DNA from: a virus | Taxonomy: Duplodnaviria; Heunggongvirae; Uroviricota; Caudoviricetes | DNA: 64,000 nucleotides | Reading direction: 5' to 3' (one strand) | Virus record (IMG/VR): IMGVR_UViG_2913167280_000003 | Span: 1 to 64,000 of that record | In this document: positions 2,849 to 39,183 of the stretch, piece after piece | Layout: each line of letters starts with the position of its first letter | How positions within the stretch are numbered: the first letter of the stretch is position 1 | The notes under the pieces: generated by a model | Seen by the model: only the letters and a program-made list of their open reading frames with translations | Databases searched by the model: none | Told to the model about the DNA's origin: nothing | Translations under genes and position numbers: made by a program

Positions 2849-5800
2849 CCTCGCCAGCTGCGTGCTGCGCCTTGATGTAGTTCTGAAGGTCGATAGTAGC
2901 CTGTTCTTTCTGGCGAGCGCGTTGCGCTGCTTTCGCCTTATCCATTTGAACCTGCATCATAGCCAAACGTTCGCCGTCATCCTTAGCGGTATACATCTGC
3001 ATTTCGATCATGTCGTTGGCGTCGGCGTTCTCCATTTCTGACTTATCTGAACGGAGAATATCGGATATCCAACCAGCTTTACGTTTCAGTGTCTTCAGGC
3101 GGTATTCATCGAAAGAACCCTTGCCGCAGTAGTAGTGAACGCGAACGCTTGCACGGTTGGAGCCAACACGGGCGCCGCGACCGTTACGCTGTGCAATACT
3201 GGCTGGAGTCCACGGCAACGTCAGGTGGTGGATATCCGTCGTTCCTCGATGCAGGTTGATACCCACCTCTGCCTTTTTGTTGCAGATGATGATCGGGGTC
3301 CGGCCCTCCTGGAAGTCGGCAGCAATCTTTTCCAGCCCGCCCAGCGACATTTCATTTTGCTGCGCGATATAGGCGTCATACAGAGCCATTTGCTCGTTGT
3401 ATTTCGCTATCTGTGCATCTGTTGGTTCATCCGGTAGCTCTTTCGGAGGTTTAACCGCTTTCAGTTTCTTACCGGTTTTACCTGCCTCTGCAACCGTCTG
3501 AGCATTCAGGATCCCCACCTTTGAAGGTTCAAGGTTAAGAGCATTGCAGATAATGCGCTTGAGCTTCTGGTGCTGCGTTTTTTCATCGGTGAAGATGATT
3601 TGCTTACCTTCCGGGAAAAACTCCTTCAGCGTGGCAATCAGCTTCGCGTATTTGGGCGTAACGGGGTGAGTTACGGTCTGTTCGTCAATGCCAAACCTGG
3701 CCAGGCGCTTATTCACTTCCTGCTCGAACGCTTCCGGAACCTGCAACTGAATAAACTCGCCCTTATCTATCAGGGAGTATTGCGATTGTTGCGTGATTGA
3801 ATCATCACTGTCGTCGTCTTCGCTGGTGGCTTGTTTAGGCAAACTGTCCGCCAGCTGCTGCACCGCATCGGCGTACTCCGGCAGGAAACGATAGGTGATC
3901 CGGCGATAGTACAGGTCCATGTCAGTACATACGCGGTCCATATCCCTGATTATTGAGAAGATCGGACGGGCTTTCTCGTGCTCAATCACGCCGTCTTCAT
4001 TGACCGAGGTCGTTACGCCATTGTTGGCTTTGGCCGCCGCTTCCACCTGCTGACGCAATTCTTCATACGCCGCCAGTTGTTCTTCAGTAAGTGGTGCATC
4101 CTGCTGGTGCTCGTCCAGCTCCGGGATCTCCACGGTATCCTTAACGTCTTCCGCCGTTTTAAGCGTTGTCCACCGATGGAATATACCGCGCAGCGCATCA
4201 AGGTTTTCAAAGCCCACCAGCGCCATTTTTTCTTCAACTTCACCGCTTATTTTCTGTACCGCTTCCAGCCTGGTCTTGCCGAAGAATTTAACGAAGTCAT
4301 CAGGACCGTAGATCCCCATCTTCTGCCAGTATTCCTTCGGCAGAACATGAAAAAGCATGTTGTATGCATCGATCGGGGTGTTAACGACTGGCGTTGCAGT
4401 CAGGAGAACCGGTCCGCGCCCGCCATTCTTTTTCATCAGGTACGCGTTTTTGATTGCCATATCTCTCGCCGATTGCGCTACCGCGCTGGTGGGCAGATAG
4501 GCCAACTGTGACGCTTCGCGACCATTTTTATAGCTATTGCGGTAGTTGTGGCCTTCGTCGGCGATCACGCTGTCGAAGCCCATATCCTCAAAGTACGGAT
4601 ACTTCTCTGCTTTTTCGGTGCCGGTATCTGAATACTCCGACAATATCCGGCGGCGCGCCGCCTCTTTGCGATGGGAATCGGAATCCATTGCGCTGGCTAC
4701 GCGCCCGGCAGCAACGAAGTCATAAAGCATATCCTGTGCATGCTCATCTACGGTGTCATCGCGTAGCGGAATGCGGGCGTATTGTTCTTTGGTAAACACG
4801 ACTGCACGGTAATTTGAGTGCAGGATCGCGTTCATCCGCGCCGTGATAGTGGCTTCATCTGCCAGCTTAAGGGCATCGCGCATAAGTGGAGTGCCATCAG
4901 CATCAAGTACAGGTTTACCGTTCTCATCGAGCACCGGCGCCTGGCGAATCTGATCGCCGTCCATCAGTACATCCAGACCGACGAACAGGTAGTTACTGAA
5001 GGCTTCTTCACTCAGGAACTCTTTTGCTTCGTAATACCAGTTTTCCAGCACTGATTTAGGCACTACATAAGCAGTACGGGTGGAGCGACCGTTCTCATAG
5101 TTGAACGCCTCAAGCGCCAGCGCGGTCGTGGTTTTACCTATTCCAGTACCGAATCCCATAATGCCGCGCCCATCTTCGGACAGTCGGCGCACCTCGCTAT
5201 TCTGGTAATCAAATGGCTGTCGCTTACCGCTTAATCCCTTCAACCCAAGCGGATCGCCAGAATGTTCATACGGGATATTGCTATTGAAAACAGTGTTGTA
5301 TTTGGCAACCAGCTCATCGTAGCGATCATGCGTCTTGAGCCACTTATTGAACTGCTCCTCAAGCAGAGCCATCTGCTCGCGGTACCCGTTCGCCGTCGTG
5401 CTATCTTTGCCACCGATACGCGCACCATTGAGATACTTTTCCAGCTGTGCCGGGAACCCGGTCGCGTTTTCTCCTGATTTACGGTCCCACTCGTAGCGGA
5501 TCTCGCCTGTTTCTTTATCCTTGCGCTGGACGACACCGTATCGGTGCCCGACGAACAGACCATCACCACCGTGATAGGTGTCAGAAACCATTTCGTCGCC
5601 TTCCAGCTGCACTGACTGCACATAGCGCAGATCCGGATAGCCGTTTTCCTGCAAAAATTCCAGAATGACGGAACGGTCGAACCAACGGCTATTGAGCTTA
5701 AACCGGATATTCTCTGCTGGCGTCTTGATGCGCTTCTCTTCGATCGCTGCCAGCTGATTAAGGACGTTGTTCTTTACTGGACCGTCGGGGAGTGTGGCAA

Positions 5801-32166: not shown

Positions 32167-33048
32167 TCAGCGTCCTGAATCGGTATACCCCCATACAAAA
32201 CCAGGTTGGACACTAAGGTCTGATAGCTTTTCAATCCCCACCTGTGGAATGAAGTCGGTAGCCCGAAAGGGCACCCACAGACGGGTATACGCACCCTCTG
32301 TGGACTCCTTTGTATCCTGGTTTGGGCATTTGTGCGGCGGGAGACGAAGTCGCATTTCGCCTTTATCGATGTAGCACGGTAAACCATGTTCGAGCTTTTC
32401 ATGAGCCAGCCGGATGTGTGCCGCCAGCTTCATAAATTCAGTATCAATGGCCATCCGTTTGATCGTTTCATAACGACGCTCAGCCTGCTCTTCACGAGTA
32501 CCGCTAACATCGTTATAAAGTTCACACTGATAAGCGAATTCCCAAAAACGCAAATCAACGATCGCTTCTTTGAATTCCGCGTCGTCTTCAGGTGGCAATG
32601 CTGCACGGCGCATCCCCAGCATTTCCATTGCCCAACCATCAAGCGGCACGATACGCCATTGATAAGGCACGCCCTCTACAGACACCTCAATATCGTCAAT
32701 GAACGGTTCCACTTCCAGGACCTGGATATCTTCAGCCAGAGCATTCATATCGCAATCGTAATAATGCTCTTTACCGCAATGTTTACAGGTGTAGGTAAAT
32801 GTCTCGATCGGTGTTTCGCGGGAGCCAGTAAATATCCACCATAACGCGGTAATCCGGTCCTGTGCCGTCCATTTCAGTGGATCATGTTTCGCAGGTTCAG
32901 CCAGCAAGGCTTTTAAATACGCCGTTGTTTGCTGTTCTTGTTCCTCCGGTGTTATCGAGTTGAAACGCATCGCATCAGCAATATTTGGCTGACGGAACTG
33001 GATTAATTCAGTTGGCCGCGATGGTAGAGGGAAAAGGGGTAAAAGCAT
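32167..33048 (-). CDS. Virion morphogenesis protein (PmgB-like position)
   Basis: 293-aa ORF downstream of sit in the same operon. Confidence 0.35.
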   Translation of the reverse strand: MLLPLFPLPSRPTELIQFRQPNIADAMRFNSITPEEQEQQTTAYLKALLAEPAKHDPLKWTAQDRITALWWIFTGSRETPIETFTYTCKHCGKEHYYDCDMNALAEDIQVLEVEPFIDDIEVSVEGVPYQWRIVPLDGWAMEMLGMRRAALPPEDDAEFKEAIVDLRFWEFAYQCELYNDVSGTREEQAERRYETIKRMAIDTEFMKLAAHIRLAHEKLEHGLPCYIDKGEMRLRLPPHKCPNQDTKESTEGAYTRLWVPFRATDFIPQVGIEKLSDLSVQPGFVWGYTDSGR

Positions 33049-33062
33049 CCTTGCTCCTTAAT

Positions 33063-33674
33063 TTAAAGCGAAAAACTAAAGCCCAGAAGGGAAGCCAAAG
33101 AACTTGAGGATTGGTTAAACGTGCTGTGCAATGCGAAGGTCATTGGGAATGACTTAAATTCCGTAACCTGATCCCGTGCATAGGTGACATCGCCGGTAGT
33201 GATCGGGAATACCGTCATCTCATTTTCCAGTTTTGTTAAACCGGAAGACAGCAACCGATAAATACGCACATTGAGCAAATATTTAGACGGTATGTTCCCG
33301 GTACCGTCCGGATTGATCACCCGACTTTTTGCCGTTTTAAACCAGTCCAAAACGAGGCCATCAACGGTATCCCTGACCATCATTGTTATCTGCCCAGGCG
33401 AACGCTCCGTTGGCTGAAGAATATTCCCTCCGCCGATTTTAATCGTTTCATATTCGATGCTGTAATCGTGGTAGGTAATGTCTTTAGCAAAGAAGTCTGC
33501 CCCCTCCAGTCCATCAACTTCGACAGAGAACTGCCATCCTTGCGCGAACAGCATTTTGTTCATGATGATTGACGTCAGCTTACCGACTTCCCGCTCACCA
33601 ACGCCGGAGCCAAATAATGTCGTCGTAAATGCCGAAGATACATAAGACTTTACTGATGCAACATTAAGTCCCAT
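33063..33674 (-). CDS. Tail protein (Tub-like position)
   Basis: 203-aa ORF between the pmgB-like and pmgC-like genes. Confidence 0.4.
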   Translation of the reverse strand: MGLNVASVKSYVSSAFTTTLFGSGVGEREVGKLTSIIMNKMLFAQGWQFSVEVDGLEGADFFAKDITYHDYSIEYETIKIGGGNILQPTERSPGQITMMVRDTVDGLVLDWFKTAKSRVINPDGTGNIPSKYLLNVRIYRLLSSGLTKLENEMTVFPITTGDVTYARDQVTEFKSFPMTFALHSTFNQSSSSLASLLGFSFSL

Positions 33675-33684
33675 ATCAGCCCCC

Positions 33685-34304
<620 letters not shown>

Positions 34305-34445
34305 CATTGAGTGGGAATATTGCCGTCTGGGAGTAATATGGTATCATTAAGTTAGAGTAGGTAGTGTAGATGGAATGAGGAGTATCATATGGTTATCACA
34401 CAATCAGGTTGCTTTGAGTCAGGTTGTTTTGAGTAAAACAATAAA

Positions 34446-34470
34446 ACGCCCTTTAATGGGCGTATTTTTT
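34446..34470 (+). terminator. Terminator-like hairpin between the pmgC-like promoter and the membrane-protein gene
   Basis: ACGCCC-TTTAAT-GGGCGT followed by ATTTTTT; A-rich on the 5' side, so possibly bidirectional. Confidence 0.45.
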
Positions 34471-34480
34471 AGGATTTAAA

Positions 34481-35374
34481 ATGCATTCTTTACAGAAATA
34501 CATAAAACATAAATATACTCACTTAACTTTTTTTCTCTCATTACTTTTTTTCATGATATTTGAATCGCGAGAAGATCTTATCAAGAAAATATTATCTTTT
34601 TCTCTCAATGAAGTTTTACCATTCTTAATGTTTGCGTTCTTCTCCGTATTTATCAGCATAACGATAAAGGAAAAGATAGCAAAGAAATACCCAGAAACAA
34701 ACGATGGGATTACCATTATAGCTTTAATCTTTGGTGTAACACTATATAGTGTGTTTATCTTATATTATTTATATGGTGATGTATACCAATCCACAATTGC
34801 TTTACTTATAAGTTCTGTGCTACTTGGTTCTGGGTGGTGGGTTCAGGCTACTGTGAGTAAAGTAGCCGCAAGAAAATCACACACCTTAAATACACTAATG
34901 AATCAAAGAAACAGTGAATTATTTCACAAGAAAGTTTCATCGGTAGCGAATACGTTCGGGCTTAGAAAAACCATAAATGAAATTATTGCCAAACAAAGAC
35001 TTGTCCCAAATGATAAAGATTTAAAAAATAAAAAGGTCCATGATGAATACATATCAGCAGGTAATGATATGTTCTTCGTTCTTAATTATTATGAATTTAT
35101 CTGTTCAGGAATAATAAATGGGGACTTTGATGAAGATTCAATGAGAGAATGTCTTGGACAAATTGTTCCAGGTCTCGAAGTTAGAGCATTTCATTTTATA
35201 AGAATTGCAAGAGAAATTTCAGGGAGTAGCTGCTTCTGTAATTTTGTCGCTGTTTCAGACAAATGGTCTACTAATGGAGGCTCTCTTATTCTCAGACACG
35301 AGAAAGGAGAACCTGTGATTAATAACCTGACCCATTGCTTTGAAGAAACAGACTGTTTTAACATAACTTCTTAA
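34481..35374 (+). CDS. Predicted 4-TM membrane protein with ~170-aa cytoplasmic C-terminal domain (accessory gene)
   Basis: 297-aa ORF, very AT-rich, AGGA RBS 6 nt upstream. Hydrophobic helices LTFFLSLLFFMIF, VLPFLMFAFFSVFISITI, GITIIALIFGVTLYSVFILYYLYG, TIALLISSVLLGSGWWV. Bracketed by ~90-bp direct repeats. Confidence 0.6.
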   Translation: MHSLQKYIKHKYTHLTFFLSLLFFMIFESREDLIKKILSFSLNEVLPFLMFAFFSVFISITIKEKIAKKYPETNDGITIIALIFGVTLYSVFILYYLYGDVYQSTIALLISSVLLGSGWWVQATVSKVAARKSHTLNTLMNQRNSELFHKKVSSVANTFGLRKTINEIIAKQRLVPNDKDLKNKKVHDEYISAGNDMFFVLNYYEFICSGIINGDFDEDSMRECLGQIVPGLEVRAFHFIRIAREISGSSCFCNFVAVSDKWSTNGGSLILRHEKGEPVINNLTHCFEETDCFNITS

Positions 35375-35380
35375 TATTTT

Positions 35381-35407
35381 GTAACCCATAATCGCTTTAT
35401 GGGTTAC
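35381..35407 (+). terminator. Hairpin downstream of the membrane-protein gene
   Basis: GTAACCCAT-(9 nt)-ATGGGTTAC perfect 9-bp stem, 7 nt after the stop codon. Confidence 0.4.
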
Positions 35408-35609
35408 GTTAAATTTGCAATAAAAAAATCAATCGCCGGGCTTTAAGCATCCATCGTTTTTGGCTTGTTGATATAACTTACTTAGCCCAGAAAGAGGGAA
35501 TGTGGCAATTTTTTCATTATCAACATAAGCATCAATCACATTAGCATTTGAATCTGCTGCATCCTGCCAAAAGGCATACCACCAAGAATCTCCAACCATT
35601 GACCCAAGA

Positions 35610-35699
35610 GGGATTTGACGTCTTCGAGTAATTGTCGTTGTGTCATTGACACCTCGTAGAATCTGGTGTGTTAACCGATTCTACGAGTTATCATTTGTT
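35610..35699. repeat. Direct repeat copy 2 (~90 bp), duplicate of the pmgC-like 5' end and promoter
   Basis: 85/89 identical to 34215-34303; retains the ATG and first 12 codons ([12 protein letters not shown]) and the ACAAATGATAA-N4-TAGAAT motif. Confidence 0.85.
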
Positions 35700-35799
35700 A
35701 CCGGTCAGTCTACACATTTCAGATGCTGCGTTAAAAAACTCAAGAGCTTCAAGTAGCATATCGTCATCAACACCCAGCCCGAAGATGCTGAGATAAAAT

Positions 35800-36984
35800 T
35801 CAAGCTTTAAGAGGCTTTGTGTATGTTCGTGTAATCCATCCAGTAATAAACTCGTCCCCTGATTTAACCTGCACGAAAAGCCATTGGCGATCTTTTTTAT
35901 CTAAAATAGCAACAATTGTATTTTTACCAATGCACTCTATCACTTCACTATTTAAAGAAGGACTGACATGTAATCTTACATTATCACCTGTTATAGCTCT
36001 AAAATTATTAAGATCCTCCCACTGAATATCTTTATTTTCTTGTGTTAGCTTTTGCTTAGATATTGGCTTATCCTCATTTAGGGATAGAATATATGATTCC
36101 ATCCCGTAAATTTGCGATAATGTTTTTTCTTTCGCATAATCAGTTATAGCGCCAAGAAATACTTGACACAAAATCCACAGAAGAAAAGTCTGAACAGGAG
36201 AAGGAAGCGCCTTAAATGAATCAATAAACGTCGAACTAGATTTATTTAATCCTTTGTCTTGAGCATCACTTTCAGTGTGTGATGTTTCAATGGCACCTTC
36301 GATATAAGCCTGTGCAATTGTTGAAAGACCTTGCTCCATTATTTGATGAAATGAAGCCTTTTGTGCTTGAGTATATTGATTTAATAATTCTTTTATTTCA
36401 TTGTTTAAATCTATCTTGTGAGTTACATTTTTCCGCAATTCATTAAGCATTGCTTGCATGTTATTCAAGCCAGCTTGCTTATTAAGCATCTCGAACTGGT
36501 TTCGTAACGGCATAGCTATTTCGGCCTGTTTCCTTAGCATTTGAATGTGTTTATTTGCATCATGAGTGGAAAAAGCCTGAGCCTGTTTCTGTAAAATATC
36601 AATATGTTTACGAAACTCGTTGCCTATTCCTGCCAGTTTCGGCATATTCTCAAACTGTTTTCGAATAGAATCACTAACTATGGATTGCAAATTAAATCTT
36701 GCTATTTGTTCTTGAGCTAGCTGTCCTATTCTTAACTGTTTTTGCAAGTTTGCCATATGTTCTTTATACGATGGAATGATTGCGTTTTTTTGCAGTTCCG
36801 CCAACTGTCTAACCAAATTATTAGAAGCATAATCTGATTTTAATAAATCACTTACCGATTTATATTCGGGCATTTTGATTTTATTTAAATCATCACGCCA
36901 AGTAATATTTGAATCTTTATTATAAAGATCGCTTACTGAGCCAAGAGCAAGTTTTTTAATGTCCTTCACTTTATTCACCGTCAT
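35800..36984 (-). CDS. Hypothetical protein: helical N-terminal region, one predicted TM helix, C-terminal SH3b-like domain
   Basis: 394-aa ORF, AT-rich; hydrophobic segment VQTFLLWILCQVFLGAITDY; C-terminal region (NVRLHVSPSLNSEVIECIGKNTIVAILDKKDRQWLFVQVKSGDEFITGWITRTY) resembles bacterial SH3 folds. Start overlaps the upstream gene by 14 nt. Confidence 0.5.
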   Translation of the reverse strand: MTVNKVKDIKKLALGSVSDLYNKDSNITWRDDLNKIKMPEYKSVSDLLKSDYASNNLVRQLAELQKNAIIPSYKEHMANLQKQLRIGQLAQEQIARFNLQSIVSDSIRKQFENMPKLAGIGNEFRKHIDILQKQAQAFSTHDANKHIQMLRKQAEIAMPLRNQFEMLNKQAGLNNMQAMLNELRKNVTHKIDLNNEIKELLNQYTQAQKASFHQIMEQGLSTIAQAYIEGAIETSHTESDAQDKGLNKSSSTFIDSFKALPSPVQTFLLWILCQVFLGAITDYAKEKTLSQIYGMESYILSLNEDKPISKQKLTQENKDIQWEDLNNFRAITGDNVRLHVSPSLNSEVIECIGKNTIVAILDKKDRQWLFVQVKSGDEFITGWITRTYTKPLKA

Positions 36985-37435
36985 CTTGCTTTAAACACCC
37001 ATCATTTTTAGCTTCCTTGTAAATACTTGAAATGCCATCAAGAGAGAATGATGTAATTCGACGCGATCCGATATATACATCCATGTTTTTTTCTTTTGTG
37101 GCTGACGCTGACTTCCAAAAAGAATACCATTCCCTACGATTAGGAGAAGTGTTTTGCGTGCCAATATTAAAACTATCCGAACCAACAATTAAAGTAATTA
37201 CATCTGCTTTACGAGAAATTGTGTCGCGTGTAGAAAAATCGGCATTCTCTTTTCCTCCGCTTACATACAAATTTCTTCCAGCGATATGGTCTTCAGAACC
37301 ATCCCTTGCACCAGCATCACAAGAAAAATTAATTGTATAGCCATCCTCATGACATGCTCCGGCAAAGCGCCTCATTTGACGCTCCTGTTGACCATCTTGT
37401 CTTAACTGGAATTTAAATGCTTGTAGTCGTTTCAT
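36971..37435 (-). CDS. Hypothetical soluble protein, first gene of a two-gene operon
   Basis: 154-aa ORF with no TM segment or signal peptide; translationally coupled to the 394-aa gene. Confidence 0.5.
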   Translation of the reverse strand: MKRLQAFKFQLRQDGQQERQMRRFAGACHEDGYTINFSCDAGARDGSEDHIAGRNLYVSGGKENADFSTRDTISRKADVITLIVGSDSFNIGTQNTSPNRREWYSFWKSASATKEKNMDVYIGSRRITSFSLDGISSIYKEAKNDGCLKQDDGE

Positions 37436-37597
37436 CCCACTATTTTAAACAAAAACAGTTAGGTGGAGAACCGCGCCTTATATCCCCACCCTGAAGGACG
37501 GGGTTTTACGGCGCACCGGATAACTCATTTAGGGTACATATTTTCGCCTTTAAAAAAAAGAGGTTATTAGATCCATTTGTGTATTTATTAAACAGAT

Positions 37598-37614
37598 AAT
37601 GCTCTAATAAATTT
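37598..37614 (+). promoter_or_regulatory. C1 operator-like site upstream of the immI operon (Op51-like)
   Basis: AATGCTCTAATAAATTT, 16/17 match to the C1 operator consensus, about 320 bp upstream of icd. Confidence 0.6.
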
Positions 37615-37789
37615 GTATTTTTAAGTCGCGAATGCTATCTTTTCGCATCATATTGACCTTTTAATCGTTCAGGCTTATAGTTCCGCCGTCGTAGCAAATT
37701 CTGCGACCAGGTTTGACAGCCTGAAAACTTACGCGGACAACCGCACATTTCCGATATTGCGGTATTTTTGTGTCCGTAAAACCACGTTA

Positions 37790-37870
37790 CGCCCGAATTA
37801 TGGTGGGGCGTGATGGGGAGGCTTCGGCCTGCTGGTTTCGTAAGTGCCAGTCTGTCAACCCTGTCACGTC
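37790..37870 (+). ncRNA. c4: c4-like antisense RNA region (approximate boundaries)
   Basis: ORF-free region between the operator and icd. Contains CTGTCAACC (37852-37860) and CTGTCACG (37861-37868), complementary to the repeated TTTGACAGC motifs at 37711-37720 and 37881-37889. Confidence 0.4.
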
Positions 37871-37927
37871 CTGCCACCTGTTTGACAGCGGGTCGCAGGT
37901 TGTTTATCAACTTACGAGGCCGTAACT

Positions 37928-38149
37928 ATGGTTAATGCCAATCCTTGCGCACGCCAAGAATTCATCTGGCGTTTCTATTCCTGTAAAAAACACCACTATC
38001 ACTTCGTTATCGCAGCAACAGAAGACGAAGCACGCTCTCAATTGCCTGATGGCCCCTGCATTTTTACTGCCCGTTTTTCGACTAACTCGCGCAATTCACT
38101 TAGTTACTGGAACCTCCCCTTCTCTGCCGACGTTCAGGGGGTTTTATGA
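37928..38149 (+). CDS. icd: Icd-like small protein, translationally coupled to ant
   Basis: 73-aa ORF whose stop overlaps the ant start by 4 nt, directly downstream of the c4-like region. Confidence 0.55.
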   Translation: MVNANPCARQEFIWRFYSCKKHHYHFVIAATEDEARSQLPDGPCIFTARFSTNSRNSLSYWNLPFSADVQGVL

Positions 38150-39183
38150 AAAAACCTCTCGTCACCCGGAATGAAATAGCCGAAGCGGTCGCCCTGCATA
38201 CTGCCTGTATGCCGACACGGGAGATCCCCGGCGCAATTGCCAACTACTTCATGATAACCAGGCGTTTTTATACCCGAACAGATAAGGCTGTGATCAACAG
38301 GCTACTGATAGCCGAGATCAGGGATTATTTGATTGAACAAGGACGTCTACGTTACGCAACAGTGGCAGCAGAAATGAGAAAGGAGGCACATAGAATGACC
38401 GGTAATAATTTGAATGTTGAAAAACCAGCACCTGTTACGTCAGCTACGCCAGCACCAGCCGTGAATATTATCCCCAACACCGGAGACACAATCGACAGCC
38501 TGACACTGTTAAAGATGGTCAATGAAGCGCGTAAGTTATGTGGGGAACCAGAGGTTCGGAACAACAAATTCATCGAAAAAATACTCGATGAGCTTGATGG
38601 TGAGCACTACACAAAAAGTGTAGTGGAAAAAATGAACAAAACATCAATGCTTGTCATAACCATGACCTACAAACAAGCCCTGCGAGTCGCCGCGCGCGAA
38701 TCAAAAGCTGTCCGCCGTTCGCTGATCGACAAACTGGAAGAATTGCAGCAGGCAAACTCCCCTACCCCATCGATCCCCCAAACATTACCAGAAGCCCTAC
38801 GCCTGGCTGCCGAGTTGGCAGAACAGAAAATGCAGCTGGAACAACAGCTGGTGGCCGCAGCCCCTAAAGTCGATTTTGCCGACCGGGTATCAGTGGCTAA
38901 TGGAATCCTGATCGGGAACTTTGCAAAGGTCGTTGGACTGAAGCAAAACGCCCTTTTCTCATGGTTGCGCCAGAACGGCATTCTCATGGCTTTTGGTGCG
39001 CGCAAAAACGTACCGCGCCAACAGTACATCAACGCCGGGTATTTCACGGTGAAAGAAGTGGTGCTGGATGATGAAAATGGCTACCAGATACGGCTGACGC
39101 CCCAATTAACGGGTAAAGGCCAGCAGTGGTTAACTCGTAAGCTACTTGCTACTGGTTTGTTAAAACCAGTAGCAATAGGTTAA
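38146..39183 (+). CDS. ant: Antirepressor (Ant1; Ant2 probably from an internal in-frame start)
   Basis: 345-aa ORF. Its C-terminal ~150 aa (PQTLPEALRLAAELAEQKMQLEQQL ... GKGQQWLTRKLLATGLL) are closely related to the KilA C-terminus. Confidence 0.7.
   Translation: MKKPLVTRNEIAEAVALHTACMPTREIPGAIANYFMITRRFYTRTDKAVINRLLIAEIRDYLIEQGRLRYATVAAEMRKEAHRMTGNNLNVEKPAPVTSATPAPAVNIIPNTGDTIDSLTLLKMVNEARKLCGEPEVRNNKFIEKILDELDGEHYTKSVVEKMNKTSMLVITMTYKQALRVAARESKAVRRSLIDKLEELQQANSPTPSIPQTLPEALRLAAELAEQKMQLEQQLVAAAPKVDFADRVSVANGILIGNFAKVVGLKQNALFSWLRQNGILMAFGARKNVPRQQYINAGYFTVKEVVLDDENGYQIRLTPQLTGKGQQWLTRKLLATGLLKPVAIG

What the first reader, a model, noticed from the sequence alone, without database searches (positions are those of the whole stretch)
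35678..35698. Duplicated late-promoter-like motif oriented antisense to the membrane-protein gene
The repeat copy at 35610-35698 retains the ACAAATGATAA-N4-TAGAAT motif that, in copy 1, sits just upstream of the pmgC-like gene. In copy 2 it would drive minus-strand transcription across the plus-strand membrane-protein gene, ending at the hairpin at 34446-34470 before the authentic promoter. If active, late lytic transcription would silence the cassette gene by antisense transcription.
Basis: inference. Interest (0 to 1): 0.5.

Follow-up and report, generated by a model that had tools for sequence, protein, structure and literature searches.

The report
Duplicated P1 late promoter, recombination by-product
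The motif is a real second copy of the phage P1 late promoter LPsit, but it was most likely left behind when a 1.4-kb accessory-gene module was recombined into a known variable region of a P1-like phage-plasmid, so any antisense silencing of the neighbouring membrane-protein gene is probably incidental rather than evolved.

Summary
ACAAATGATAA-N4-TAGAAT lies at 35678-35698 (minus strand), inside a 93-nt direct repeat (34211-34303 and 35606-35698, 95% identical). Copy 1 is the homologue of P1's annotated late promoter LPsit, with its leader and the first 13 codons of pmgC. Copy 2 points at a junk fusion ORF, a 56-aa gene remnant, then the antisense strand of the DUF4760 membrane-protein gene.

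The silencing interpretation is only partly supported.
- **Most carriers lack it:** 35 of 46 complete E. coli genomes with the DUF4760 cassette have no second LPsit.
- **It arose by recombination:** the second copy occurs with three different junctions. The window's junction sits next to three different right-hand cassettes.
- **It can be lost:** one plasmid keeps both cassettes without the extra promoter.
- **It is degraded here:** copy 2 has three private substitutions, one in the -22 box. It is the weakest LPsit variant seen (10.3 bits against 16.25 for P1).

Best reading: a recombination by-product in the sim variable region that may still fire late. Nothing here tests transcription. Interest is low to moderate.

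The parts
35678..35696 (-). Second copy of the LPsit late promoter: -10 TAGAAT at 35678-35683, 4-nt spacer, -22 box AAATGATAA at 35688-35696. Predicted start near 35671.
   Evidence: sequence; homology to annotated P1 LPsit; 10.3 bits, rank 24 in the window
35606..35698 (-). Repeat copy 2: late promoter, leader with a 17-nt palindrome and the pmgC Shine-Dalgarno sequence, and the first 13 codons of pmgC
   Evidence: D1, 95% identical to copy 1; breakpoints against other plasmids
34211..34303 (-). Repeat copy 1: the working LPsit (-10 at 34283-34288, -22 box AAATGACAA at 34293-34301), leader, and the 5' end of the intact pmgC
   Evidence: P1 annotation
33685..34251 (-). pmgC, first gene of the late pmgC-tub-pmgB-sit tail operon
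   Evidence: PHROG 1851 E 6.5e-102; P1 annotation
34446..34463 (.). Bidirectional intrinsic-terminator hairpin, homologous to the hairpin after simC in P1. It is the likely end of any minus-strand transcript from copy 2.
   Evidence: both strands; 100% identity to P1 over 34419-34463
34481..35374 (+). DUF4760 membrane-protein gene (297 aa), the proposed antisense target
   Evidence: Pfam PF15956 E 8.7e-14; phrog_21275
35380..35408 (+). Hairpin after the DUF4760 gene. It is terminator-like on the plus strand only, so it should not stop minus-strand transcripts.
35429..35599 (-). 56-aa remnant: the C-terminal third of a 158-aa signal-peptide protein (phrog_3429 positions 103-157 of 158), truncated at the recombination junction
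   Evidence: alignment with the full-length gene
35536..35646 (-). Chimeric 36-codon ORF: 13 pmgC codons fused out of frame to the remnant. It marks the junction at about 35606-35610.
   Evidence: junction mapped
35800..36984 (-). SH3-domain protein gene (394 aa), the right-hand cassette. In SH3-type plasmids its 3' end directly abuts a single-copy LPsit.
   Evidence: phrog_7086. The SH3_3 match is just below the Pfam cut-off.
36971..37435 (-). 154-aa ORF, a phrog_3429 paralogue whose N-terminus is replaced by an IS605 OrfB-like fragment
37796..37881 (+). C4 antisense RNA of the immI operon. It marks the conserved right border of the variable sim slot.
   Evidence: Rfam RF01695, 69.6 bits

Best explanation
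The motif is the second copy of P1's late promoter LPsit. It is carried in a 93-nt segment (promoter, leader, first 13 pmgC codons) that was duplicated when a 1.4-kb module was joined to a P1-like genome that already had a different cassette next to its own LPsit. That module comprises the sim-type terminator, the DUF4760 gene and a truncated downstream gene. The resident cassette here encodes an SH3-domain protein. The join was an unequal or illegitimate crossover, or equivalently a single crossover of a circular fragment within the 93-nt homology. This happened in the sim 'superimmunity' slot between pmgC and c4, a known variable region of P1-like phage-plasmids. Copy 2 is therefore a by-product and homology arm of cassette stacking, not a designed regulator. 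It may still work as a weakened Lpa-dependent promoter, at roughly even odds. If so, during lytic growth it would produce a roughly 1.2-kb RNA from about 35671 to the hairpin at 34463-34446. That RNA would run through the junk ORF and the gene remnant and across the antisense strand of the DUF4760 gene. Any reduction of DUF4760 expression would then be a side effect. Shown here: the repeat, its homology to annotated LPsit, the junction anatomy, and the population distribution. Inferred: the recombination route, promoter activity, and the extent of the transcript.
For: The window is a P1-like phage-plasmid, and the repeat matches annotated P1 LPsit. The breakpoints are sharp. Window 33000-35609 is collinear with single-copy DUF4760-type plasmids (L005). 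Window 35606 onward is collinear with SH3-type plasmids in which a single LPsit abuts the SH3 gene (L006, L008). The two alignments overlap by 4 nt. The junction truncates a 158-aa gene to 56 aa and fuses pmgC codon 13 to it out of frame. The identical junction occurs in 5 other complete plasmids with two other right-hand contexts: hyp477b/hyp648 in CP100532, and DUF5384 in CP069679 and CP098993. Two further junction types exist. In type B (7 E. coli genomes by hit geometry, 2 of them checked by sequence) the duplicated pmgC 5' end joins the 3' end of the gene upstream of the 158-aa gene, here called hyp351. In type C the whole of pmgC, tub and part of pmgB are duplicated. Only 11 of 46 DUF4760-bearing complete E. 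coli genomes have a second LPsit. None of 58 IMG/VR P1-like stretches has two copies. CP057476 carries DUF4760 and SH3 stacked with copy 2 absent. Across all cassette contexts, homology stops 2 nt upstream of the -22 box, so the promoter edge is the slot boundary. The sim region is a published highly variable region of P1-like phage-plasmids (PMC9603915), and GC content drops to 0.29-0.37 across the slot. Window copy 2 has the most private substitutions of 77 copies (3, one in the -22 box) and the lowest matrix score.
Against: No transcription data are available, so promoter activity and any antisense effect are untested either way. Every local LPsit duplication I characterised accompanies the DUF4760 cassette: 11 of 46 carriers, with at least two or three junction types. 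Among the other roughly 466 records at most 5 extra copies remain, and the one I inspected is not local. That association could reflect selection for a convergent late promoter rather than neutral hitch-hiking. The -10 hexamer and the 4-nt spacing are intact in all seven second copies examined. T at box position 7 also occurs in P1's annotated LPlyz, so copy 2 is not clearly dead. Types A and B break pmgC within 1 nt of each other, which simple random illegitimate recombination does not explain.
Confidence: 0.7

Rival explanations
1. Copy 2 is a functional, selected late promoter. Its antisense transcript, or collision with convergent transcription, shuts off the DUF4760 membrane-protein gene once the phage commits to lysis. 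This would, for example, stop an exclusion or abortive-infection-type protein from harming the phage's own lytic growth.
For: The orientation is correct, and there is no minus-strand terminator before 34463-34446. The -10 hexamer and spacing are intact. The box differs by one base from AAATGACAA, which is the only LPsit in SH3-type plasmids. Local LPsit duplications were found only with the DUF4760 cassette, in 11 of 46 carriers and with 2-3 junction types, all convergent on the gene.
Against: 76% of DUF4760 carriers lack the second copy. Stacking persists without it in CP057476. Window copy 2 carries a unique change in the Lpa box and scores 6 bits below P1 LPsit, at a level where about half the sites are chance. 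The duplicated segment includes useless pmgC codons and a truncated gene. In single-copy plasmids, minus-strand genes already converge on DUF4760. The function of DUF4760 is unknown: there are no PADLOC hits and no structural relatives. Late silencing cannot remove protein already made in a lysogen (inference).
Confidence: 0.15
2. Copy 2 is a dead relic. The degenerate -22 box no longer binds Lpa, so nothing is transcribed from it.
For: The box matches the AAGTNACTT palindrome at only 4 of 8 positions. Its right half-site is ATAA instead of ACTT. It scores 10.3 bits against 16.25 for P1 LPsit and 18-22 for the strong late promoters in the window. It was not found within 2 mismatches of the consensus. 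It has three private substitutions in 92 nt, whereas 71 of 77 copies have none.
Against: Copy 1, which presumably drives the essential tail operon, is itself only 12.0 bits, and its box AAATGACAA is one step from copy 2. The annotated LPpmgL scores 11.3 bits, and LPlyz has T at the changed position. No mutational data on the box could be retrieved.
Confidence: 0.4
3. The 93-nt segment is a dedicated recombination site or hot spot, for a site-specific or structure-directed process that captures cassettes. The promoter motif would only be a passenger within it.
For: Junction types A and B break pmgC within 1 nt of each other, although the remnant alleles differ at 5 of about 190 positions. The segment contains a conserved 17-nt palindrome. 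The upstream edge of homology is identical in all cassette contexts.
Against: The boundaries lie at the ends of the segment, not in the palindrome core where a recombinase would exchange strands. Type C has a quite different, much larger duplication. No recombinase gene lies in the slot. L004 (type A) and L010 (type B) share the same right-hand context, so type A may simply derive from type B by deletion. The sharp upstream edge is explained by selection to keep the promoter intact (inference).
Confidence: 0.1
4. The duplication is an assembly artefact of the source sequence.
For: None specific. No near-identical record for the whole region was found.
Against: The same junction sequence occurs in five independently sequenced complete plasmids. 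The two copies in the window differ at 5 positions, so they are not a collapsed or copied read.
Confidence: 0.02

Closest known systems
Phage P1 late promoter LPsit (AF234172 46608-46626), one of 11 Lpa-dependent late promoters
   Same: The whole 93-nt segment is homologous to it. The -10 TAGAAT and the 4-nt spacer CTCG are identical, and the position relative to the pmgC leader is the same.
   Different: The box is AAATGATAA instead of AAATGACTA, two changes, one of them unique among 77 copies. It is followed by gene remnants and an antisense gene rather than the tail operon.
P1 LP26/LPpmgL, a divergent pair of late promoters sharing one -22 box
   Same: LP26 has exactly the LPsit box and -10 (AAATGACTA-N4-TAGAAT). 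This shows that this non-consensus box is used elsewhere in P1, and that late promoters can fire in unexpected directions.
   Different: That pair drives two late operons. Neither is antisense to a lysogeny or accessory gene.
Antisense control in the neighbouring P1 immunity region (C4 RNA; PaskilA antisense to kilA)
   Same: Phage-encoded antisense transcription regulating genes within a few kb of this locus.
   Different: Those are short, dedicated, conserved RNAs or sigma-70 promoters. Here the antisense transcript is hypothetical, about 1.2 kb long, late-promoter driven, and absent from most relatives.
The simABC 'highly variable region 4' of P1-like phage-plasmids (PMC9603915)
   Same: Same genomic slot between pmgC and c4, with low-GC interchangeable cargo.
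   Different: I did not find duplication of the flanking late promoter as a by-product of stacking two cassettes in the papers I searched or read.
Transcriptional interference between convergent phage promoters, for example coliphage 186 pR/pL (from my own knowledge, not checked here)
   Same: Two promoters face each other, with the stronger able to reduce output of the weaker.
   Different: In 186 the arrangement is a conserved developmental switch. Here it is sporadic, and no promoter for the DUF4760 gene has been identified.

Membership tests
P1 Lpa-dependent late promoter | -10 hexamer of the form TANNNT | tested here: met
   TAGAAT at 35683-35678, identical to P1 LPsit and LP26
P1 Lpa-dependent late promoter | 9-bp inverted repeat (AAGTNACTT) centred near -22, the Lpa binding site (PMC10695390) | tested here: inconclusive
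   AAATGATAA matches 4 of 8 specified positions. It scores 10.3 bits, rank 24 of 127,964 19-mers, with about 10.6 sites expected by chance at that score. P1 LPsit scores 16.25 bits and the annotated LPpmgL 11.3.
P1 Lpa-dependent late promoter | 4-nt spacing between the box and the -10 hexamer | tested here: met
   The spacer is CTCG. The same spacing is found in 10 of the 11 annotated P1 late promoters.
P1 Lpa-dependent late promoter | Homology to an annotated late promoter | tested here: met
   88 of 93 nt are identical to copy 1, and the segment aligns with P1 LPsit
P1 Lpa-dependent late promoter | Precedes a late (morphogenesis, lysis or packaging) operon | tested here: not met
   Downstream lie a 36-codon chimeric ORF, a 56-aa remnant and the antisense strand of the DUF4760 gene
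P1 Lpa-dependent late promoter | Transcription depends on Lpa and host SspA, late in infection | not testable with these tools
   No expression data are available. The lpa gene lies outside the window, which covers P1 coordinates of about 9.5-77.5 kb.
Evolved antisense or convergent-promoter regulator of a cassette gene | Promoter convergent on the target, with no terminator between them | tested here: met
   The only minus-strand terminator-like site in 33600-38200 is 34463-34446
Evolved antisense or convergent-promoter regulator of a cassette gene | Co-inherited with the target gene across relatives | tested here: not met
   35 of 46 DUF4760-bearing complete E. coli genomes and 26 of 30 PLSDB records lack it. 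CP057476 has both cassettes without it.
Evolved antisense or convergent-promoter regulator of a cassette gene | Sequence constraint on the regulatory copy | tested here: inconclusive
   Window copy 2 has 3 private substitutions and CP098993 copy 2 has 4 real mismatches to the consensus. The second copies in L004, L010 and L070 are identical to the consensus.

The most novel reading that the evidence does not exclude
A copy of the late promoter LPsit has been placed convergent to the DUF4760 gene at least two or three separate times, and every local duplication I characterised accompanies this cassette (11 of 46 carriers). It could therefore be a selected late-phase shut-off: an Lpa-driven antisense transcript that silences a prophage membrane protein harmful to the phage's own lytic cycle.
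Probability: 0.15. Interest if true: 0.55.

Novelty: new member of a known kind. Interest (0 to 1): 0.27.

Why it matters
If copy 2 is only a by-product, its value is descriptive. It shows how P1-like phage-plasmids stack accessory cassettes in the sim slot: by unequal recombination anchored on the late-promoter/pmgC 5' segment, leaving a spare promoter behind. That is useful for annotating these clinically common plasmids, and it is a caution that promoter motifs inside variable regions may be hitch-hikers. If the spare promoter does silence the DUF4760 gene during lysis, it would be a simple example of a temperate phage switching off its own lysogenic-conversion gene by late antisense transcription. 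It would also give a way into the function of an uncharacterised membrane-protein family.

Tried and rejected
- **P1 primary literature:** I tried to read the P1 genome paper and the 1991 gene 10 paper for mutational data on the -22 box. Neither is held. I used the GenBank annotation of all 11 late promoters instead.
- **Literature searches:** searches for LPsit and DUF4760 found nothing relevant.
- **PADLOC:** a scan of the four slot proteins gave no hits.
- **Function of the DUF4760 protein:** sequence homologues form only 23 uncharacterised clusters. An AlphaFold model (pLDDT 82, all-helical) had no significant match in the PDB or among viral predicted structures; the best E-values were 0.97 and 0.056. 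The function stays unknown.
- **Exact source or near-identical relative:** the right-hand part of the window is at most about 90% identical to anything in PLSDB or in complete E. coli genomes.
- **A sigma-70 promoter for the DUF4760 gene:** I considered one inside the terminator hairpin (TTGAGT-17-TTTAAT, 34429-34457). It lacks the A at -10 position 2 and the scan did not call it, so I do not rely on it.
- **A mirror late promoter on the plus strand of the palindrome:** rejected, because the box is not mirrored and no TANNNT lies at the right spacing (read directly from the sequence).
- **Restriction or recombinase sites at the shared pmgC breakpoint:** inspection by eye found nothing convincing.
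- **CP016549 as a non-DUF4760 local duplication:** its second copy is not in the slot.

Full report
**What the window is.** The region is part of a P1-like phage-plasmid (genus Punavirus). Window 33600-38200 matches P1, P7, SJ46 and related records at 95-97% over pmgC/tub on the left and c4/icd/ant on the right. The roughly 3.2 kb in between has no counterpart in P1. In P1 this interval holds simC-simB-simA. It is one of eight published 'highly variable regions' of P1-like phage-plasmids (PMC9603915). GC content falls from about 0.47 to 0.29-0.37 across 34300-37450. C4 RNA is at 37796-37881. The window corresponds to P1 coordinates of about 9.5-77.5 kb and does not include the late activator gene lpa.

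**The observation.** The motif ACAAATGATAACTCGTAGAAT is on the minus strand at 35678-35698. Its partner ACAAATGACAACTCGTAGAAT is at 34283-34303. These are the only two matches in the window, with none in 100 shuffles. Both belong to a 93-nt direct repeat (34211-34303 and 35606-35698, 95% identity, 1395 nt apart).

Copy 1 aligns with the late promoter LPsit annotated in the P1 record: -10 TAGAAT, 4-nt spacer, '-22 region' AAATGACTA. It is followed by the leader and the ATG of pmgC at 34251. So the repeat is promoter, leader and the first 13 codons of pmgC.

[quoted passage not shown] The 11 annotated sequences give the box consensus AAGTNACTT. LP26 has exactly the LPsit box and -10 (AAATGACTA-N4-TAGAAT).

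On a matrix built from nine annotated promoters, excluding LPsit and LPhot, the scores are:
- P1 LPsit: 16.25 bits.
- Window copy 1 (AAATGACAA): 12.0 bits, rank 12 in the window.
- Window copy 2 (AAATGATAA): 10.3 bits, rank 24 of 127,964 19-mers.

About 10.6 sites reach 10.3 bits in shuffled sequence. Neither copy is within two mismatches of the consensus, whereas seven canonical late promoters in the window are. Motif strength alone therefore does not establish function; homology does the work.

Among 77 copies of the segment (58 IMG/VR stretches, plasmids, P1 and the window), the box is AAATGACTA in most and AAATGACAA in the SH3-type context. AAATGATAA occurs only in window copy 2. That copy has three private substitutions, the most of any copy: the box C-to-T change, a T-to-G change between the Shine-Dalgarno sequence and the ATG, and a change in codon 3. 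By contrast, 71 of the 77 copies have none. T at that box position does occur in P1's LPlyz, and AAATGACAA is the sole LPsit of SH3-type plasmids. Copy 2 is therefore weakened but not clearly dead.

**What lies downstream of copy 2.** Reading the minus strand from copy 2:
- A 36-codon ORF (35646-35536) made of 13 pmgC codons fused out of frame to other sequence.
- A 56-aa ORF (35599-35429) that is the C-terminal third of a 158-aa signal-peptide protein, phrog_3429 positions 103-157 of 158.
- A hairpin (35380-35408) that is terminator-like only on the plus strand.
- The antisense strand of the 297-aa DUF4760 gene at 34481-35374.
- The hairpin at 34463-34446, which is terminator-like on both strands and identical to the one after simC in P1.

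**How the duplication arose.** Pairwise comparisons give sharp breakpoints. Window 33000-35609 is collinear with plasmids that have a single LPsit, the DUF4760 gene, then the full 158-aa gene and its upstream neighbour, here called hyp351 (L005). Window 35606 onward is collinear with plasmids in which a single LPsit directly abuts an SH3-domain gene (L006, L008). The two alignments overlap by 4 nt.

The window is thus a hybrid. The right parent's 'SH3-LPsit-pmgC codons 1-13' is joined to the left parent's '56-aa end of the 158-aa gene, DUF4760, terminator, LPsit, pmgC'. An unequal crossover would give exactly this structure. So would integration of a circular fragment by one crossover within the 93-nt homology.

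**The population picture.**
- **Type A, the window's junction:** found in five other complete plasmids, with two other right-hand neighbours. These are a second 158-aa paralogue in CP100532, and a DUF5384 gene in CP069679 and CP098993.
- **Type B:** seven E. coli genomes by hit geometry, two of which (L010, L070) I confirmed by sequence. It joins the same pmgC position, within 1 nt, to the 3' end of hyp351, the gene upstream of the 158-aa gene, which stays intact.
- **Type C:** CP074905 duplicates the whole of pmgC, tub and part of pmgB together with LPsit.
- **Stacking without the extra promoter:** CP057476 has DUF4760 and SH3 stacked with the duplicated tail genes and second promoter absent. 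It looks like a deletion derivative of type C.

Of 46 complete E. coli genomes with the DUF4760 cassette, 35 have no second LPsit. In PLSDB 26 of 30 have none. None of 58 IMG/VR stretches has two copies. In every cassette context homology ends 2 nt upstream of the -22 box, so the promoter edge is the left border of the variable slot.

**Interpretation.** These facts fit a by-product best. The spare promoter comes with useless coding fragments. It is absent from most carriers of its supposed target. It has arisen through several different junctions. It can be lost while the stacked cassettes remain, and in this window it has begun to diverge. In the common single-copy arrangement, minus-strand genes already converge on the DUF4760 gene, so convergent transcription does not need copy 2.

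I therefore read copy 2 as a recombination by-product that also serves as an internal homology arm. It has roughly even odds of still firing late, and any antisense effect would be incidental.

The 93-nt segment occurs in 512 E. coli records at 528 places. Eleven of the 16 extra copies are the DUF4760-linked duplications. The one other extra copy I inspected is not in the slot, and I did not inspect the remaining four or so. So every local duplication I characterised accompanies this cassette, with two or three junction types, all convergent on the gene. The -10 hexamer is intact in all seven second copies.

This association could reflect selection for a late convergent promoter. It could equally reflect selection for adding DUF4760 to an existing cassette set, or a small number of clonal events. 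I cannot separate these possibilities here, and I give the adaptive model about 0.15.

**What the target gene is.** The DUF4760 protein has hydrophobic N-terminal helices and a helical C-terminal domain. It has no PADLOC match, only 23 uncharacterised homologue clusters, and no significant structural neighbour. Whether silencing it late would benefit the phage is therefore unknown. P1's own sim genes, which occupy the same slot, are non-essential, while pmgC, tub, pmgB and sit are essential (PMC10695390).

**Comparison and verdict.** The element is a homologue of a known promoter (P1 LPsit) in a known variable region. Antisense control is well known in the neighbouring immI and kilA regions. 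I did not find the duplication as a by-product of cassette stacking described in the papers I could search.

As a late promoter, copy 2 meets the -10, spacing and homology criteria. It is inconclusive on the box and fails the 'precedes a late operon' criterion. Lpa dependence cannot be tested here.

I rate it a new member of a known kind, with interest of about 0.27.

Noticed in passing
34252-34298 (copy 1) and 35647-35693 (copy 2), minus strand: The LPsit -10 hexamer lies in the 5' arm of a conserved 17-nt imperfect palindrome. The 3' arm contains the pmgC Shine-Dalgarno sequence (ACGAGG, 6 nt before the ATG). RNA reading through from upstream folds into a hairpin of -23.6 kcal/mol (z = -5.8) that would bury the ribosome-binding site. 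RNA started at LPsit begins in the loop and lacks the 5' arm (leader fold only -3.2 kcal/mol). This suggests promoter-specific translation: only late-promoter transcripts of the tail operon would be translatable.
   Followed up: partly
35606-35610; L010 (CP074805) about 4370; L004 (CP100532) about 4450: Junction types A and B break pmgC within 1 nt of each other (…AAATCCC|TCTTGGG and …AAATCCCG|TTTGAATC). Yet they join different partner sequences, and the remnant alleles differ at 5 of about 190 positions. Either type A derives from type B by a deletion ending at the old junction, or this position is a recombination hot spot. This is unexplained.
   Followed up: partly
34446-34481: The ATG of the DUF4760 gene (34481) is preceded by a good plus-strand intrinsic terminator (stem 34446-34463, tail ATTTTTT) only 11 nt upstream. 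That leaves no room for a promoter of its own. Cassette-specific sequence starts right after the stem. The nearest plus-strand sigma-70-like site (TTGCCG-16-TATCAT with an upstream TG, 34320-34347) lies upstream of the terminator, in sequence shared with P1. How the gene is transcribed is unclear.
   Followed up: partly
36971-37435, minus strand: The 154-aa ORF is a chimera. Residues 27-152 match phrog_3429, the same family as the 56-aa remnant. The signal-peptide N-terminus is replaced by about 28 residues resembling the IS605 OrfB/TnpB helix-turn-helix N-terminus (Pfam E 0.0016; phrog_25073 E 1e-12). This is probably another recombination scar.
   Followed up: no
34293-34301 compared with L003, L004, L005 and L009-L011: Window copy 1 carries the SH3-type box variant AAATGACAA, although its upstream context is the DUF4760/P1 type. 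In the 10 other loci with that context the box is AAATGACTA. This suggests gene conversion between the two copies, or a crossover inside the box.
   Followed up: partly
E. coli complete genomes; L009, L010, L070: All local duplications of the LPsit segment that I characterised are linked to the DUF4760 cassette (11 of 46 carriers). At most 5 extra copies remain among about 466 other P1-like records, and the one I inspected is not in the slot.
   Followed up: partly
L003 (CP057476) 4459-4728: This plasmid carries the DUF4760 and SH3 cassettes stacked, with the 158-aa gene lacking about 9 N-terminal codons and fused directly to the 3' flank of the SH3 gene. It has no second LPsit. It looks like a deletion derivative of the CP074905 arrangement.
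   Followed up: yes
37688-37769, plus strand: An isrK-like Rfam match (45.6 bits, below the gathering score of 50) overlaps the c4 a1/b1 target element upstream of C4 RNA.
   Followed up: no
34283-34301, minus strand: The primary LPsit of this element scores only 12.0 bits, against 16.25 for P1. It is the weakest of the recognisable late promoters in the window, although it heads the essential pmgC-tub-pmgB-sit operon.
   Followed up: no
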